Under the pieces are notes generated by a model. It did no database searches. It saw nothing but the letters and a program-made list of their open reading frames with translations, and was not told the DNA's origin. The translations under genes and the position numbers were made by a program. A DNA stretch of 64,000 nucleotides. Source: Alphaproteobacteria bacterium (GTDB lineage: Bacteria > Pseudomonadota > Alphaproteobacteria > UBA9219 > RFNS01). The stretch spans positions 154,103 to 218,102 of the forward strand of contig WGMR01000007.1 in assembly GCA_016124955.1 (NCBI GenBank), read 5' to 3'. Shown here piece by piece: positions 57,244 through 62,022 of the stretch. Each line of letters starts with the position of its first letter. The stretch's first letter is position 1.

Positions 57244-57491
57244 GTATTTGTTATATAATAATATTTTTAAATTTCTCGGATCTGCCTGCGCAGCATTTAC
57301 GGAAATTTGACCCGTGCTATGGCTGATTCAAATGCAACTATTCCACGGAAATCGTTCGTAATACTTGCAAGAGTCGCTTGCAAGTATTACGGGGACGTAT
57401 AAGTATTAGTTGCACGCCTTCTATTCCTGCTTTGCATGGGTTTTTTCCGGTGAACACTGACAACCCTGTCCGCGCTACGCCGCCCCAGAAA

Positions 57492-57890
57492 ATGCCCGCC
57501 GTTCCGAGCTGGGCCGATCAGGACGAAATGCTTCGTTCGCTCTGGCAGGAAGGCAAACAGCCGGAAGAAATTGCTGAAAAACTGGGCCGTTCGGTAGCGG
57601 CTGTGATGACGCGCGCCGCGCGCCTTGGGTTGCCGCGCCGCTTCGCGCCGGGGCGCAAACCAAGCCAGAAGCGGGCTGAAGGGGAAGTAACCCAACCCGG
57701 CATGGCCCGCCGTTACACAACCCCCGCTGCAGAAGCCAAGCCGGCTGAACCGATGGTTGAGCGCGTATGCCTGATGTGTTTAACCAAATTTCCATCCGCA
57801 GGGCGGCATAACCGTATTTGCAACAGCTGCAAGGATTCGAACGATTACGCAGCCGGCAACCGGCTGCCCGACCTCGACTTTCCGGAGTAA
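57492..57890 (+). CDS. GcrA-like N-terminal HTH protein with C-terminal C4 zinc finger
   Basis: SW..DEMLRSLWQEG....IAEKLGRS..AV..RA.RLGL; RVCLMC..FPS.G..NRICNSCK; start may be GTG 57450. Confidence 0.75.
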   Translation: MPAVPSWADQDEMLRSLWQEGKQPEEIAEKLGRSVAAVMTRAARLGLPRRFAPGRKPSQKRAEGEVTQPGMARRYTTPAAEAKPAEPMVERVCLMCLTKFPSAGRHNRICNSCKDSNDYAAGNRLPDLDFPE

Positions 57891-57896
57891 ACCGCC

Positions 57897-58538
57897 ATGG
57901 CCATCCGCGACGCCGTTCAGACCATTGTTAATCGCAACGCTTATTACCGCGATGGTTACAGGCTTATGCTGCGGCTCAGCATCATCCTCGCGCTCGTTAT
58001 CCTTGTGCTCACCGGGTCGCTGATCGGCATGATTGTCACCACCAACGTGCAGCATGTGTTTTTCGCCACCACATCGGACGGCCGCATCATGCCGATCGTG
58101 CCGCTGAGCGATTCCTTTATCAGCCGCGGCGACCTGGTTTCGTGGGTGGCCGATACAACCAAGCGCGTGATGCAGTTCGGTTACCACGATTACCGCGAAC
58201 GGCTGCAGGATTCGGCGCAGTATTTCACCGCCGATGGTTGGGAGAGTTTCACCAAATCCGTTTTGAAGGAAGCGCGCATCATTGAAACCATCACCGCGCG
58301 GCGTCTCGTTGTCGATGCCGAAATCGATGCCGCGCCCGAAGTGGTGGCCGAAGGCAATAACAACGGCATCTATACATGGGTGGTGCGCGTGCCGATCACG
58401 GTCAAATATATGGGCGACAAGGCGCCGGCCGAACAGCGGCTTGATCTGCAGCTGACCATCGTGCGCGTCTCGACGCTCGAACGTTCGAAGGGCATCGGCA
58501 TCAAGCAATGGATCGCCGCGCCGCGGCAGACGCGTTAA
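57897..58538 (+). CDS. icmL: Dot/Icm type IVB secretion protein IcmL/DotI (TraM family)
   Basis: RN.YYRDG, FFATTSDGRI.P, DYRE.LQ..YFTADGW..F, W.VR.P..V.Y, RVSTLE..KGIGI.Q. Confidence 0.92.
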   Translation: MAIRDAVQTIVNRNAYYRDGYRLMLRLSIILALVILVLTGSLIGMIVTTNVQHVFFATTSDGRIMPIVPLSDSFISRGDLVSWVADTTKRVMQFGYHDYRERLQDSAQYFTADGWESFTKSVLKEARIIETITARRLVVDAEIDAAPEVVAEGNNNGIYTWVVRVPITVKYMGDKAPAEQRLDLQLTIVRVSTLERSKGIGIKQWIAAPRQTR

Positions 58539-58544
58539 CGCCCC

Positions 58545-59330
58545 ATGGCAAATCAGACTGCCCCACCGAAAAACCCGGCCGCCGCAGCGGGCGCCGCGCT
58601 TTCGCGGGCGCTGGTGCCGCTGCGCCGCGGGGGGACGGAAAGCGCAACCGTGCGCACGCGTCCGCGCGGCAAGGACGGTCCGTTCGGCCTGTTCGACGAC
58701 ACGCTCACGGCCGCCGAGGCGCGGCTTGATCTTCGGACCTTCCACGCGCGCTTCACGCGTTTGCGCCGGCTTGTGATGATGGAGGTGTGGGCGATCATCG
58801 CGCTTGTGGGGCTGATGATTGTCGGCGTGCCCATGCTGGGCACCAAGAACGTCTATTTCGCCACCACGCCTGCGGGGCAGGTCAAGCGCATGGTTGCGCT
58901 GACCATGCCGAACATGACGCACCAGGCCGTGCTTTCGTGGGTGACCACGACCGTAACCCAGGTCATGACCTACAACTTCGCGAACTTTAACCAGGAGATA
59001 TCGAAGCATCAGCGCAAGTTCCTGTCCAAAAGCTGGGAACAGTTCGTCAAGGTTCTGCTGCAGGACGACATGCTGAAAAAGTTCCAGCAACAGGAATTGG
59101 TGCTGACGACGGCGCCGTTCGGCGCGCCCGTGATCACATCGGAAGGGGTTGTGGACAAACGCTATCAGTGGGTTGTGCAGCTGCCCGTTATCATGAACTA
59201 TGTGACCAACAACAACCGCAGCGTGCAAAGACGCAATATTGTTGAATTGACCGTGGTGCGGGTGCCGACCACGGAAAACCCGGACGGCGTTGCCATCAAG
59301 GTGTGGAACGCCAAGAAACGTAAGGAATAA
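58545..59330 (+). CDS. icmL: Second IcmL/DotI family protein
   Basis: YFATTP.GQ, VLSWV, MTYNFANF, F...W..F, W.VQLP..M.Y, V.RVPT.ENPDG.AI. Confidence 0.88.
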   Translation: MANQTAPPKNPAAAAGAALSRALVPLRRGGTESATVRTRPRGKDGPFGLFDDTLTAAEARLDLRTFHARFTRLRRLVMMEVWAIIALVGLMIVGVPMLGTKNVYFATTPAGQVKRMVALTMPNMTHQAVLSWVTTTVTQVMTYNFANFNQEISKHQRKFLSKSWEQFVKVLLQDDMLKKFQQQELVLTTAPFGAPVITSEGVVDKRYQWVVQLPVIMNYVTNNNRSVQRRNIVELTVVRVPTTENPDGVAIKVWNAKKRKE

Positions 59331-59477
59331 GGATGATTTGCCCGGGCAAGGCTGAAAAGTACCGGTTTTGTGTGGCTGCGGGGCAACCGGGCCCGGTCAA
59401 GGGCCGTGCCCGCACATGGCGGGTCGCCAATTTGCTTAACGCCCTGCATAATAAAGGTTATAACCGGAAAATAAGGT

Positions 59478-59484
59478 TGATTCG
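59478..59484 (+). promoter_or_regulatory. TGATTCG (extended GANTC) motif upstream of icmK
   Basis: In a 221 bp intergenic gap, about 70 nt before the icmK start. Confidence 0.35.
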
Positions 59485-59551
59485 GCGCGCCACGGCGCCG
59501 TGCCAGCCGCGCGGCGGTCCCGGCGAAACGGGGCCCGGTGAAGGATTGTGT

Positions 59552-60544
59552 ATGCGCTCGTTGCCCATGTTCCCAGCCCTGCTGATGCTGTGCGCCTTTC
59601 TGGCGCTTATGCCGCGCATGGCCGGCGCACAGGAAGGCGGCATTGATCTGCCTGCGCCGCCGCAATCCGGCGAAATTACATCCGATCCCGATCTTTTGAT
59701 GATGGAAGCCAGCGAAGCGGCTGCGGCGGCGGAGATGGATGCCGAGCAGGAGCGTGCCAAAGAAAAGCACAATGATTTATCCTACGAGCGCGCGACCATG
59801 AGCACGCTGCCGCTTTCGCCCGAACAGGTGCGCGCCTTCATGCGCCGCCTTGAAACCACGCAGGAAGCGGCGGTGCCGCCCACGACCGGTGCGCCGAAGG
59901 GCGAGGTGAAGGTCCAGACCGTTTCGCTTGATCCCGGCGTCGATCCGCCGGTCGTCAACGTGGCGGCCGGTTATGTCACCACGATCGCGATGCTGGATTC
60001 GACCGGCGAACCGTGGCCGATCCTCGATGTCGGCGTCGGCGGCAACTTTGAAGTGTCGCCCACCGCCGCGGGCACGCATGTTGTCCGCATCACGCCGCTG
60101 ACCCGTTTTGGCGATGGCAATATCTCGGTCCTGCTCAAGGAATTCAAGACCCCGATCATCTTCCGCCTCGTCGCCGGCGGGCCGAAGGTGCATCTGCGTT
60201 TCGATGCCCGCATACCGATGATAGGGCCCAACGGCAAGGCCCCGCTGATCAGCCGCCCGCGCCTGAGCGCCGGCGACGCCCTGATCATGGCGTTTCTCGA
60301 TAACGCGCCGCCGCGCGATGCCAAGCGCCTGAAGGTTGGCGGCATGGATACGCGCACCATGGCATGGTCGATGGGGGAAAAGGTTTTCGTGCGCACGCCG
60401 CTGACCTTGCTGTCGCCCGCCTGGAATGCCAGTGTTGCTTCATCGGACGGGATGACGGTTTACGAAATAGGTGATGCGCCCGTGCTGCTTTTGTCGGATA
60501 ACGGCGCGATGGTGCGGGCACGCCTTGCGCGGGAAGAAGAATGA
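59552..60544 (+). CDS. icmK: Dot/Icm outer-membrane core protein IcmK/DotH (TraN family)
   Basis: Signal peptide; LPLSPEQV, VSLDPG..PP.V..A.GYVTT..LDSTG.PWPI, GN.SV.L...TP, R.D.RIP..GPN. Confidence 0.92.
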   Translation: MRSLPMFPALLMLCAFLALMPRMAGAQEGGIDLPAPPQSGEITSDPDLLMMEASEAAAAAEMDAEQERAKEKHNDLSYERATMSTLPLSPEQVRAFMRRLETTQEAAVPPTTGAPKGEVKVQTVSLDPGVDPPVVNVAAGYVTTIAMLDSTGEPWPILDVGVGGNFEVSPTAAGTHVVRITPLTRFGDGNISVLLKEFKTPIIFRLVAGGPKVHLRFDARIPMIGPNGKAPLISRPRLSAGDALIMAFLDNAPPRDAKRLKVGGMDTRTMAWSMGEKVFVRTPLTLLSPAWNASVASSDGMTVYEIGDAPVLLLSDNGAMVRARLAREEE

Positions 60545-62022
60545 TGGCTGATAACGAAGACGATTTCGAAGAACAAGCCGCCGGCTTCGAGGAGTCGATG
60601 GAAGAGCCCGTCCTTTCCGAAGATACGGAAGACGGCGGCGCCGGTCGCCGTGAACGCATGATGGCGAACGTGTCGGAAGCTTGGCGTACGCAGCCCTTCT
60701 TCAAGCTTGTTGTCGTTATGATCGTGGTTGCGGCCGTGATCGCTTCGATCATGAGCCTGACCAGCAGCCCGAACACCCCGGTTCCCTCAAGGGTCGCGAG
60801 CACGCCTGACCTGCGCGAAGCGCCGGGCGGCACCGCGACCCCTGCATTCATCGAAGCGCAAAAACAGGCGGCCGCACAGCGCGCCGCCGCGGCGCAAAAA
60901 ACCGGCGGCAGCGCGATGCCGACGCCGGTCGGCACCGGCATTTCGCTTGATGACCTTGAAAACAAGGACGAGAATGAAGGCGACAAGCTGGCGGAATTCC
61001 GCGACGAACTGGCGCGCATGAAGCAGCAGCAAAAGGTGCAGGTGCAGCAGATCCAGCAGCAGGTGAAGCAGCAACGCCCCGAACAATTCGACGACAAGCT
61101 TTCGCAGGCGATGCGTTCGCAGATGAACCAGTTGCTTGAAGGCTGGCAACCAAAGCAGCTGCAGCTGGTTTCCGGCACTTCGTTGAAGGACGAGCTGAAG
61201 GCGAAGGATGATGCGGGCAAGGATGGCGGCAAGGATGCCCCGGAAACCGCTGCGCCGCCAAGCACCATCCTTGTGCCGGCGGGCACGGTCAATTACGGCC
61301 AGATGCTGACGGAAGCGAATTCGGATGTGCCTGGCCCGATTTTGGCGCAAATCCTTTCCGGCCCGCTTGCGGGCGCGCGCGCGGTCGGTTCGTTCAAATA
61401 TTTCGAAGAATATCTTGTGCTGACCTTTAATCTCATCAGCTACAAGGGCAAGGATTATTCGGTCAATGCGCTCGCGCTCGATCCCGAAAGCACGCTCGGC
61501 GGTCTCGCGACCGAAGTTGATCACCGTTACTTCACGCGTGTGATTTTGCCCGCCGCCGCCGCTTTCGCGCGCGGTATCGGGCGGGCGCTGGCGCAAGGCG
61601 GATCGACCACCACGATCAACAACGATACGACGTTGCAGGAACAGGGCAAGAAAAGCATCAGCCAGGGCGTGTATGAAGGTTTGAGCGAAGCCGGGGAAAC
61701 GGTCGGCACCTTCCTGCAGCAAAAGGCGGATGCAACCAAGACGCTTGTGCGCGTCGCTTCGGGCGCGCCGATCGGGATTTTCTTTGTCGAATCGGTCACA
61801 GACCGCGCGCCGGAACCGCCGTCCTATGCGCCCTATGCCGGCGGCTATTACAACGGCGCCGTGTCGCAAGGCGGTTACGCGCCGCAAGCCGGCTATGCGC
61901 CGCCCGGCAGCGCGCCCGCATACCAGGCCGGTGCGAATGTCACCAACTATCCGCAGCCGGGTTCGGTGCCCGTCCCCAGCACCGCGCCCACAAATGCATC
62001 TTATGCGGCCCCCGCGCCCTGA
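60541..62022 (+). CDS. icmE: Dot/Icm core protein IcmE/DotG (VirB10/TraO-like)
   Basis: Single TM, Gln-rich coiled coil, AGT..Y..M..EANSD.PGP.LA.I.SGPL.GA...GSF, A.A.DP....LAT.VDH.YF. Confidence 0.9.
   Translation: MMADNEDDFEEQAAGFEESMEEPVLSEDTEDGGAGRRERMMANVSEAWRTQPFFKLVVVMIVVAAVIASIMSLTSSPNTPVPSRVASTPDLREAPGGTATPAFIEAQKQAAAQRAAAAQKTGGSAMPTPVGTGISLDDLENKDENEGDKLAEFRDELARMKQQQKVQVQQIQQQVKQQRPEQFDDKLSQAMRSQMNQLLEGWQPKQLQLVSGTSLKDELKAKDDAGKDGGKDAPETAAPPSTILVPAGTVNYGQMLTEANSDVPGPILAQILSGPLAGARAVGSFKYFEEYLVLTFNLISYKGKDYSVNALALDPESTLGGLATEVDHRYFTRVILPAAAAFARGIGRALAQGGSTTTINNDTTLQEQGKKSISQGVYEGLSEAGETVGTFLQQKADATKTLVRVASGAPIGIFFVESVTDRAPEPPSYAPYAGGYYNGAVSQGGYAPQAGYAPPGSAPAYQAGANVTNYPQPGSVPVPSTAPTNASYAAPAP

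What the first reader, a model, noticed from the sequence alone, without database searches (positions are those of the whole stretch)
57492..57890. GcrA-like HTH fused to a C4 zinc finger at the head of the Dot/Icm operon
Seen: the N-terminus matches the GcrA DNA-binding HTH pattern. The C-terminus is CxxC-N12-CxxC rather than the GcrA sigma70-interacting domain. Its stop is 6 nt from icmL, so it is probably co-transcribed. Inference: a dedicated alphaproteobacterial regulator linking T4BSS expression to the cell cycle or a growth/attack phase switch, unlike Legionella PmrA/CpxR control.
Basis: partly seen in the sequence, partly recalled or inferred. Interest (0 to 1): 0.62.

Follow-up and report, generated by a model that had tools for sequence, protein, structure and literature searches.

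The report
GcrA-headed zinc-finger regulator of T4BSS
A small, unannotated protein that joins the DNA-binding head of the cell-cycle regulator GcrA to an unrelated four-cysteine zinc finger is the conserved first gene of the dotI/icmL type IVB secretion operon in uncultured Micavibrio-like alphaproteobacteria, so it is most likely that machine's own transcription switch and not a sensor of DNA methylation or the cell cycle.

Summary
Window 57492-57890(+) encodes a 132-aa protein. Its N-terminus is homologous to the GcrA DNA-binding domain (Pfam 27.4 bits against a cut-off of 26.9; hhalign 97.3%). Its C-terminus is CxxC-N13-CxxC (not N12) and shows no detectable similarity to the GcrA sigma-interacting domain. 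The stop codon lies 6 nt before icmL.

The gene is tied to T4BSS. All 14 genomes with it, out of 401 sampled alphaproteobacteria, also carry DotI. In 57 of 60 species loci a DotI gene follows directly. A Thalassospira plasmid shows the same linkage.

The cell-cycle/GANTC reading is not supported:
- The four GcrA residues that form the methyl-adenine pockets are replaced by other, invariant residues.
- GANTC is not enriched upstream.
- A canonical GcrA is encoded elsewhere in the genome.

New here:
- The zinc finger belongs to a large uncharacterised family (5,672 cluster representatives; phrog_13335). Most members are free-standing 50-100 aa proteins in genomes without T4BSS.
- The promoter in front of the gene is conserved (TTAA-N7-TTGA in 27 of 69 loci against 0.7 in shuffles; a TTACTTTC box in 51 of 69 against 10.9).

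A transcription-factor role is inferred, not shown. The fold with sigma70 was inconclusive. This scan reached the same reading for this family on other genomes.

The parts
57492..57890 (+). Gene X: a 132-aa GcrA-head / C4 zinc-finger protein. An alternative in-frame GTG start lies at 57450.
57507..57662 (+). Residues 6-57: a three-helix HTH homologous to the GcrA DNA-binding domain, followed by the invariant basic extension PRRFAPGRKP.
   Evidence: Pfam GcrA; PDB GcrA chains; hhalign 97.3%; AF2 pLDDT above 90; generic HTH fold matches at Z 5-7
57663..57758 (+). Residues 58-89: a variable linker predicted to be disordered.
   Evidence: pLDDT 47-53; unconserved columns
57759..57860 (+). Residues 90-123: a C4 zinc finger (C93, C96, C110, C113), predicted as a beta-hairpin knuckle plus a helix start (treble-clef-like).
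   Evidence: invariant columns; AF2 pLDDT 83-93; phrog_13335 E 1.4e-8; no Pfam or NCBIfam family
57861..57887 (+). Residues 124-132: the acidic/hydrophobic tail LPDLDFPE. It is conserved in the T4BSS-linked subfamily and missing from free-standing zinc-finger proteins.
57884..57896 (+). GGAG inside the end of gene X plus the 6-nt spacer before the icmL ATG. No terminator lies between the two genes.
57296..57312 (+). TTTA-N7-TTGACC. This is the window's version of the conserved TTAA-N7-TTGA box (a -35-like hexamer with an upstream half-site).
57357..57408 (.). A perfect 15+15-nt inverted repeat (57357-57371 / 57377-57391) with GAGTC at its centre, plus a third TAATACTT copy at 57401-57408. It is unique in the genome. 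Its core resembles the conserved ACTT(T/G)CA box of other loci.
57897..58538 (+). icmL/dotI copy 1
   Evidence: PF11393 E 5e-45
58545..59330 (+). icmL/dotI copy 2, with an N-terminal extension of about 80 aa
   Evidence: PF11393 E 1e-40
59333..62022 (+). icmK/dotH and a TrbI-type dotG gene. Gaps are 2 and -4 nt, so they belong to the same tight operon.

Best explanation
Gene X encodes a transcription factor dedicated to the type IVB secretion genes. It is the first gene of the X-dotI-dotI'(-dotH-dotG...) operon.

Shown:
- It has a GcrA-type DNA-binding head, a disordered basic linker and a small zinc-stabilised C-terminal module. This is the same three-part plan as GcrA.
- It is co-inherited with, and almost always directly precedes, a dotI gene pair.
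- A conserved promoter travels with it.

Inferred:
- The head binds DNA sequence-specifically. Its specificity differs from GcrA because the residues that read methylated GANTC are replaced.
- The zinc finger contacts a general cellular partner (RNA polymerase/sigma, or nucleic acid) and not a secretion-system part. The reason is that the same finger occurs free-standing in thousands of genomes without T4BSS and fused to other HTH heads.
- The protein controls, and probably autoregulates, the operon it heads.

Whether it activates or represses cannot be told from sequence.
For: Domain evidence:
- Head homology.
- The AF2 model has two confident domains joined by a disordered linker.
- The recognition helix and about 45 columns are invariant among 25 homologues that are only about 50% identical overall.

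Linkage to T4BSS:
- Co-occurrence: 14 of 401 sampled alphaproteobacterial genomes have X, and all 14 have PF11393 DotI. Seventeen other DotI-positive genomes lack X. One of the 14, G040, is unpublished; without it the count is 13/13.
- Adjacency: 8 of 8 looked-up contigs. Of 60 species-level loci, 57 have DotI directly downstream and 2 have one inserted gene.
- X-dotI-dotI' persists as a unit even where dotH/dotG are elsewhere.
- A plasmid of cultured Thalassospira xiamenensis has X, a primase-like gene, DotI and DotH.
- The gap is 6 nt with an internal GGAG and no terminator.

Promoter:
- TTAA-N7-TTGA occurs in 27/69 loci against 0.7+-0.8 in shuffles. TTACTTTC with at most one mismatch occurs in 51/69 against 10.9+-2.9.
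- The extended box is unique in each of five genomes.
- It is absent upstream of dotI in ten X-less genomes.

Zinc finger:
- The family has 5,672 representatives, mostly 48-100 aa proteins. Some are fused to other HTHs. It matches phrog_13335.
Against: No experiment or transcript data exist: only DNA runs hold this sequence. No binding site could be assigned to X. The conserved boxes may simply be core promoter elements or sites for another factor. A TTACTTTCAYRRG-type box also occurs at unrelated promoters in one genome. The fold of X with the genome's own sigma70 (residues 118-575) scored 0.00, which the tool rates as no evidence either way. The zinc finger has no significant structural neighbour. 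X stays with the dotI pair and not with the largest T4BSS block, which also fits a protein-level partnership with DotI. Two genomes (G151, G254) and one locus (L073) have X away from dotI.
Confidence: 0.6

Rival explanations
1. One reading: X works like GcrA. It reads CcrM-methylated GANTC sites and so couples T4BSS expression to the cell cycle or the attack/growth switch.
For: The head is homologous to the GcrA DBD. W3, W15, K39 (as R) and R42 equivalents are kept. GANTC sites lie in or near the putative promoter in the window (57325, 57371) and in a few relatives. GAGTCG sits at the centre of the palindrome.
Against: The methyl-pocket residues R33, N34, I37 and G38 are V, A, M and T, invariant in the family. 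G38 substitutions abolish methyl reading in GcrA (PMC5887438). GANTC is not enriched upstream. The sigma-interacting domain is absent. A canonical GcrA with all these residues is encoded at G000:C2.
Confidence: 0.08
2. X is not a transcription factor. It is a cytoplasmic accessory of the secretion machine, for example a partner of the cytoplasmic tails of DotI/DotI', an adaptor, or itself a translocated substrate recognised through its acidic-hydrophobic C-terminal tail.
For: The tightest conserved unit is X-dotI-dotI', kept together in about 16 loci where dotH/dotG are not adjacent. The LPDLDFP tail is specific to the T4BSS-linked subfamily. The second DotI copy has a long cytoplasmic N-terminal extension.
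Against: X has no transmembrane segment and no match to any Dot/Icm family. The head is a bona fide DNA-binding HTH whose recognition helix is invariant. The zinc finger occurs in thousands of genomes without T4BSS. Seventeen of 31 DotI-positive genomes do without X.
Confidence: 0.15
3. X is a leftover of the mobile-element ancestor of the system: a plasmid- or phage-type DNA-binding accessory (for instance a relaxosome/oriT or replication helper) carried along with the I-type transfer genes.
For: On the Thalassospira plasmid X sits next to a CHC2 primase-like gene in an I-type transfer block. The finger matches a phage family, phrog_13335, and the head matches phrog_323. Atlas feature neighbours are short phage GcrA-like proteins.
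Against: The position at the operon head with a conserved promoter is constant. No phage homologue was found by tblastn. Only one plasmid in 72,556 carries it.
Confidence: 0.07

Closest known systems
GcrA of Caulobacter crescentus (PF07750, NF050816; PDB 5YIU/5YIV, 7YE1)
   Same: The N-terminal three-helix DNA-binding domain is homologous, including W3, W15, the LG turn and RLGL. The overall plan is the same: a small head, a long disordered basic linker and a small zinc-stabilised C-terminal module.
   Different: The C-terminal module is a C-x2-C-x13-C-x2-C finger with no detectable similarity to the CCCH sigma-interacting domain. The methyl-adenine pocket residues are replaced. The NCBIfam GcrA score is 30 bits against a cut-off of 280. 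X is not the housekeeping copy, which lies elsewhere in the genome. Its distribution follows T4BSS and not the class.
Two-component control of Legionella/Coxiella dot/icm genes (PmrA, CpxR, LetA; from general knowledge, not tested here)
   Same: The proposed role is the same: transcription control of type IVB secretion genes.
   Different: Those regulators are response regulators encoded away from the operons and are unrelated in sequence. X is a one-component-like small protein encoded as the first gene of the operon.
phrog_13335 and the free-standing alphaproteobacterial C4 zinc-finger proteins (all annotated 'hypothetical')
   Same: The same finger, with invariant R-x-C-L-x-C...F-x-S...R-I-C-x2-C-K.
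   Different: Those proteins are 48-100 aa and lack the HTH head and the LPDLDFP tail. They sit as orphans among housekeeping genes (infA, prfB, ftsH). Their function is unknown.

Membership tests
GcrA (PF07750 / NF050816 sigma70 cofactor) | N-terminal GcrA-type DNA-binding domain | tested here: met
   Pfam 27.4 bits against 26.9; PDB GcrA chains; hhalign 97.3%
GcrA (PF07750 / NF050816 sigma70 cofactor) | C-terminal sigma70-interacting domain with the CCCH zinc motif C-X14-C-X9-C-X2-H | tested here: not met
   The Pfam match stops at profile position 78 of 155. NF050816 scores 30 bits against a cut-off of 280. hhalign of the finger against canonical GcrAs gives probability 0.1%.
GcrA (PF07750 / NF050816 sigma70 cofactor) | Methyl-adenine pockets formed by R33, N34, I37 and G38 | tested here: not met
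   The aligned residues are V, A, M and T, invariant in 25 homologues. The genome's canonical GcrA keeps all four.
GcrA (PF07750 / NF050816 sigma70 cofactor) | [quoted passage not shown] | tested here: inconclusive
   The co-fold with the genome's own RpoD residues 118-575 scored 0.00. The tool rates this as no evidence either way.
Dot/Icm type IVB core or accessory protein | Homology to a described Dot/Icm family | tested here: not met
   No T4BSS family among the Pfam or NCBIfam matches
Dot/Icm type IVB core or accessory protein | Conserved position inside a dot/icm gene cluster | tested here: met
   57 of 60 loci have dotI directly downstream. All 14 X genomes have DotI.
phrog_13335-type C4 zinc finger (uncharacterised) | Profile match and four invariant cysteines with the conserved F-x-S / R-I-C context | tested here: met
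   phrog_13335 E 1.4e-8; invariant columns; 5,672 representatives with the A3 profile
DksA/TraR, HNH, YacG and other named zinc ribbons | Match to the family profile or fold | tested here: not met
   No Pfam or NCBIfam hit reaches its cut-off. The best structural Z is 2.5. The 13-residue spacer is too short for an HNH core.
CtrA-activated promoter | TTAA-N7-TTAAC box overlapping the -35 region | tested here: inconclusive
   TTAA-N7-TTGA is strongly enriched (27/69), but TTAA-N7-TTAA is not (1/69). The window has TTTA-N7-TTGAC. The G fits a sigma70 -35 hexamer as well as a CtrA half-site.

The most novel reading that the evidence does not exclude
The C4 finger is a new, widespread module that binds RNA polymerase or sigma. 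HTH-plus-finger proteins such as X would then form a second class of GcrA-style 'pre-recruited' monomeric activators. The thousands of free-standing 50-100 aa finger proteins of alphaproteobacteria and their phages would be polymerase-binding factors. A bolder variant: the LPDLDFP tail lets the DotI/DotI' cytoplasmic tails sequester X, so that operon expression senses assembly of the machine.
Probability: 0.15. Interest if true: 0.75.

Novelty: new variant of a known kind. Interest (0 to 1): 0.5.

Why it matters
Type IVB secretion is understood almost only from Legionella and Coxiella, where its regulators are distant two-component systems. Here a large uncultured group, including relatives of the predator Micavibrio, carries a one-gene, operon-linked candidate switch. 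It gives a simple handle for asking when these machines are made, using one small protein and one conserved promoter. It also shows that the GcrA DNA-binding head has been reused with a different partner module. And it exposes a very large family of small zinc-finger proteins with no known function, whose repeated fusion to DNA-binding heads makes a role in transcription testable.

Tried and rejected
- **Finger as a diverged GcrA SID.** hhalign probability 0.1%.
- **Named zinc-ribbon families (DksA/TraR, YacG, HNH, NrdR, FmdE).** Only sub-threshold Pfam/NCBIfam matches. Fold searches of the whole model and of the finger alone gave only generic HTH hits (Z 5-7) and nothing above Z 2.5 for the finger.
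- **Co-fold with sigma70.** Score 0.00, uninformative.
- **The 35-nt perfect palindrome as a conserved operator.** It is not conserved in other loci and is unique in the genome.
- **GANTC enrichment.** None.
- **A regulon from extra copies of the boxes.**
  - TAATACTT occurs nowhere else in the 45-kb cluster.
  - The extended -35 box is unique per genome.
  - TTACTTTCAYRRG has six extra copies in one genome, but these lie at unrelated genes such as rbfA.
  - One pattern was mistyped by one base and that search was wasted.
- **X-like or finger-like ORFs upstream of dotI in ten X-less genomes.** None.
- **Phage homologues by tblastn.** None.
- **RNA runs for a transcription start and for co-transcription.** Only the source hot-spring DNA runs hold the sequence.
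- **Context of free-standing fingers.** No conserved neighbourhood beyond infA in three loci.
- **Literature.** No paper on this protein was found.

Full report
**1. What is there**

Window 57492-57890(+) is an open frame of 132 codons. It ends in TAA at 57888-57890. The next gene starts at ATG 57897, so six bases separate them. A GGAG at 57884-57887 lies inside the end of the first gene. No terminator-like site lies between them.

The downstream genes are two DotI/IcmL paralogues (PF11393, E 5e-45 and 1e-40), DotH/IcmK, a TrbI-type DotG and a 467-aa protein. The gaps between them are 6, 2, -4 and 46 nt. Beyond the window the same strand continues with DUF6750, a 993-aa protein, DotM and a DotL-like coupling protein.

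The genome is 1.93 Mb and 99% complete. The only sequencing runs that hold this sequence are labelled hot springs metagenome. Related loci carry the labels Micavibrio, 'Bdellovibrionales', Rhodospirillaceae or Alphaproteobacteria, and all are MAGs.

**2. The protein**

*Head.* Residues 6-78 match Pfam GcrA just above its curated cut-off (27.4 against 26.9 bits), but only positions 2-78 of the 155-position profile. NCBIfam's GcrA equivalog scores 30 bits against a cut-off of 280. A profile of 25 homologues finds the solved GcrA chains (7ye1_G E 3.9e-5; 5yiu_A E 0.0021). hhalign against seven canonical GcrAs gives 97.3% probability over 54 columns. The head homology is therefore real.

*Model.* AlphaFold2 gives two confident domains: an HTH with pLDDT above 90 and a finger at 85-93. 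The linker between them is disordered. Folded alone, the finger is a hairpin knuckle plus a helix start, which is treble-clef-like.

**3. Is the tail a GcrA sigma-interacting domain?**

The published GcrA structure shows that the canonical SID is itself held together by a CCCH zinc site, C-X14-C-X9-C-X2-H (PMC5887438). A profile of the finger against canonical GcrAs gives probability 0.1%. The cysteine pattern also differs. The tail is a different module.

No curated Pfam or NCBIfam family reaches its cut-off. No solved structure is a significant neighbour (best Foldseek E 3.3; best VIA Z 2.5).

**4. Does the head read methylated GANTC?**

In GcrA the methyl pockets are built by R33, N34, I37 and G38, and base contacts also use H41 and R42. 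In the hhalign alignment these positions are V, A, M, T, A and R in X, and K39 is R. All are invariant among 25 homologues. The genome's canonical GcrA (G000:C2, 145.6 bits) keeps the GcrA residues and the CCCH domain.

GANTC is not enriched upstream. There are 7 sites in 2,450 nt against 9.6 expected. Across loci, 47 of 69 upstream regions hold one against 48.8 in shuffles. The methylation and cell-cycle mechanism is not supported by the protein or by site statistics.

**5. Linkage to type IVB secretion**

- **Family size.** The family has more than 400 homologues, all 'hypothetical'.
- **Contig look-ups.** All eight contigs examined have X directly before two DotI genes. The upstream neighbours vary.
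- **Co-occurrence.** In an even sample of 401 alphaproteobacterial genomes, 14 have a full-length X and all 14 have DotI. Seventeen other DotI-positive genomes lack X. One of the 14, G040, is unpublished, so the published count is 13 of 13.
- **Position in the 14 genomes.**
  - X is within 1 kb of DotI in nine.
  - In G159, X lies on a 2.5-kb contig and is followed by a divergent DotI-like ORF (BLASTP E 9e-13).
  - In two genomes one M3-peptidase-like gene intervenes.
  - In two genomes (G151, G254) X lies elsewhere.
- **Species-level loci.** Of 62 loci, 60 have sequence downstream. DotI follows directly in 57, after one inserted gene in 2, and not at all in 1.
- **The triad.** DotH follows in 32 of 51 loci with enough room. 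In about 16 the unit X-dotI-dotI' stands apart from the rest of the system.
- **Plasmids.** One plasmid among 72,556, from cultured Thalassospira xiamenensis M-5, carries a 37%-identical X. It is followed by a CHC2 primase-like gene, DotI and DotH.
- **X-less systems.** Ten X-less T4BSS genomes have no X-like or finger-like ORF upstream of dotI.
- **Cultured Micavibrio.** M. aeruginosavorus ARL-13 was reported to lack type IV secretion (PMC3189940).

**6. The finger family**

A profile of the finger finds 5,672 representatives at E up to 0.001, and 231 at E up to 1e-10, among 1.84 billion cluster representatives. Most are proteins of 48-100 aa with the finger at the C-terminus. All that carry a name are 'hypothetical'.

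Some members are fused to other HTH-type heads, including a DnaA-domain-IV-like one. The finger matches phrog_13335, a phage family of unknown function.

In the class sample, free-standing copies occur in genomes without DotI. They are orphan genes among housekeeping neighbours. This argues that the finger's partner is a general cell component and not a secretion-system part. That is an inference.

**7. The promoter**

The intergenic region 57244-57491 is AT-rich. It holds a perfect 15+15-nt inverted repeat (57357-57391) centred on GAGTC and a third TAATACTT copy at 57401-57408. The repeat is unique in the genome. TAATACTT occurs nowhere else in the 45-kb cluster. The palindrome as such is not conserved.

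Across 69 non-redundant upstream regions two elements are strongly enriched:
- TTAA-N7-TTGA, exact, in 27 regions (shuffles 0.7 +- 0.8, maximum 3).
- TTACTTTC, with at most one mismatch, in 51 regions (shuffles 10.9 +- 2.9, maximum 20).

Anchored alignment gives GTTAA-N3-AAATTTGA-N-GATT..TGC.TTAT, then AATTACTTTCAYAAG. The spacing from TTGA to TTACTTTC is mostly 26-27 nt. The window has TTTA-N7-TTGACC at 57296-57312. Its TAATACTTGCAAG arms resemble the second box.

Read as a sigma70-type promoter, TTGA is the -35 element and an AT-rich hexamer 17 nt later is the -10 element. The second box then spans the start site, and the conserved TGC.TTAT lies in the spacer near -20. These are the positions where GcrA boxes lie in GcrA-dependent promoters (PMC9976885). 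This reading is inference, because no transcription start is known.

The extended -35 box is unique in each of five genomes. It is absent upstream of dotI in ten X-less genomes. The first box is one base from the CtrA consensus, but TTAA-N7-TTAA itself is not enriched (1 of 69). CtrA control is only a lead.

Extra copies of the second box in one genome lie at unrelated genes. It cannot be claimed as the X site.

**8. Mechanism and odds**

The best-supported reading (0.6) is a dedicated transcription factor that heads, and probably autoregulates, the dotI operon. It would be built like GcrA from a DNA-reading head and a tethering module on a flexible linker. Its DNA specificity differs from GcrA and its partner is unknown.

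A co-fold with the genome's own sigma70 fragment scored 0.00. The tool says this is no evidence either way.

The rivals are:
- a protein-level accessory or substrate of the machine (0.15);
- a mobile-element DNA-processing relic (0.07).

**9. Novelty**

No paper on this protein was found. This scan has met the same family on other genomes and reached the same main reading (e1-1394430, e1-909873, e1-1175350, e1-894563). The tests here were run independently and agree.

Added here:
- the promoter statistics;
- the size and make-up of the finger family;
- the plasmid example in a cultured organism;
- the point that the canonical SID is also a zinc domain;
- the persistence of the X-dotI-dotI' unit.

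I class it as a new variant of a known kind.

Noticed in passing
window 57357-57408: A perfect 35-nt palindrome (15-nt arms, 5-nt centre holding GAGTC) plus a third TAATACTT copy 10 nt further on. It is unique in the 1.93-Mb genome and not conserved in relatives. It could be an operator or a 5'-UTR hairpin.
   Followed up: partly
L024, L026, L027; P0126, P0208 and about 5,600 other cluster representatives: A very large family of free-standing 48-100 aa C4 zinc-finger proteins (R-x-C-L-M-C...F-x-S-x-G-x-H-N-R-I-C-x2-C-K) in alphaproteobacteria and phages (phrog_13335). All are unannotated. In three loci the gene lies just downstream of infA.
   Followed up: partly
L043 (G171), L044 (G311), L103, L106: In one family a gene of about 710 aa, resembling an M3 peptidase by its N-terminal sequence, is inserted between gene X and the dotI pair, inside the operon. 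The family was not checked against a profile library.
   Followed up: no
L047 (Thalassospira xiamenensis M-5 plasmid NZ_CP004389.1, 93-113 kb): A plasmid typed as non-mobilizable carries an I-type transfer-like block: X homologue, CHC2 primase-like gene, DotI, DotH and a large AAA ATPase. It is the only cultured-organism home of the X family that was found.
   Followed up: partly
L116 (831-kb contig labelled Acidobacteriaceae MAG): An X homologue is followed by DotI-like sequence split over three short frames. This may be a decayed copy, a horizontal transfer or a mislabelled bin.
   Followed up: no
window 58545-59330: The second DotI paralogue has an N-terminal extension of about 80 residues, rich in Ala, Arg and Pro, before its membrane segment. 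The first copy lacks it.
   Followed up: no
L121-L127 (genome G403, a Micavibrio sp. MAG): The 13-mer WTACTTTCAYRRG occurs seven times in this genome against zero for the reversed control. The copies are often preceded by an A-run and include one before rbfA. It may be a lineage-specific promoter or start-site element.
   Followed up: partly
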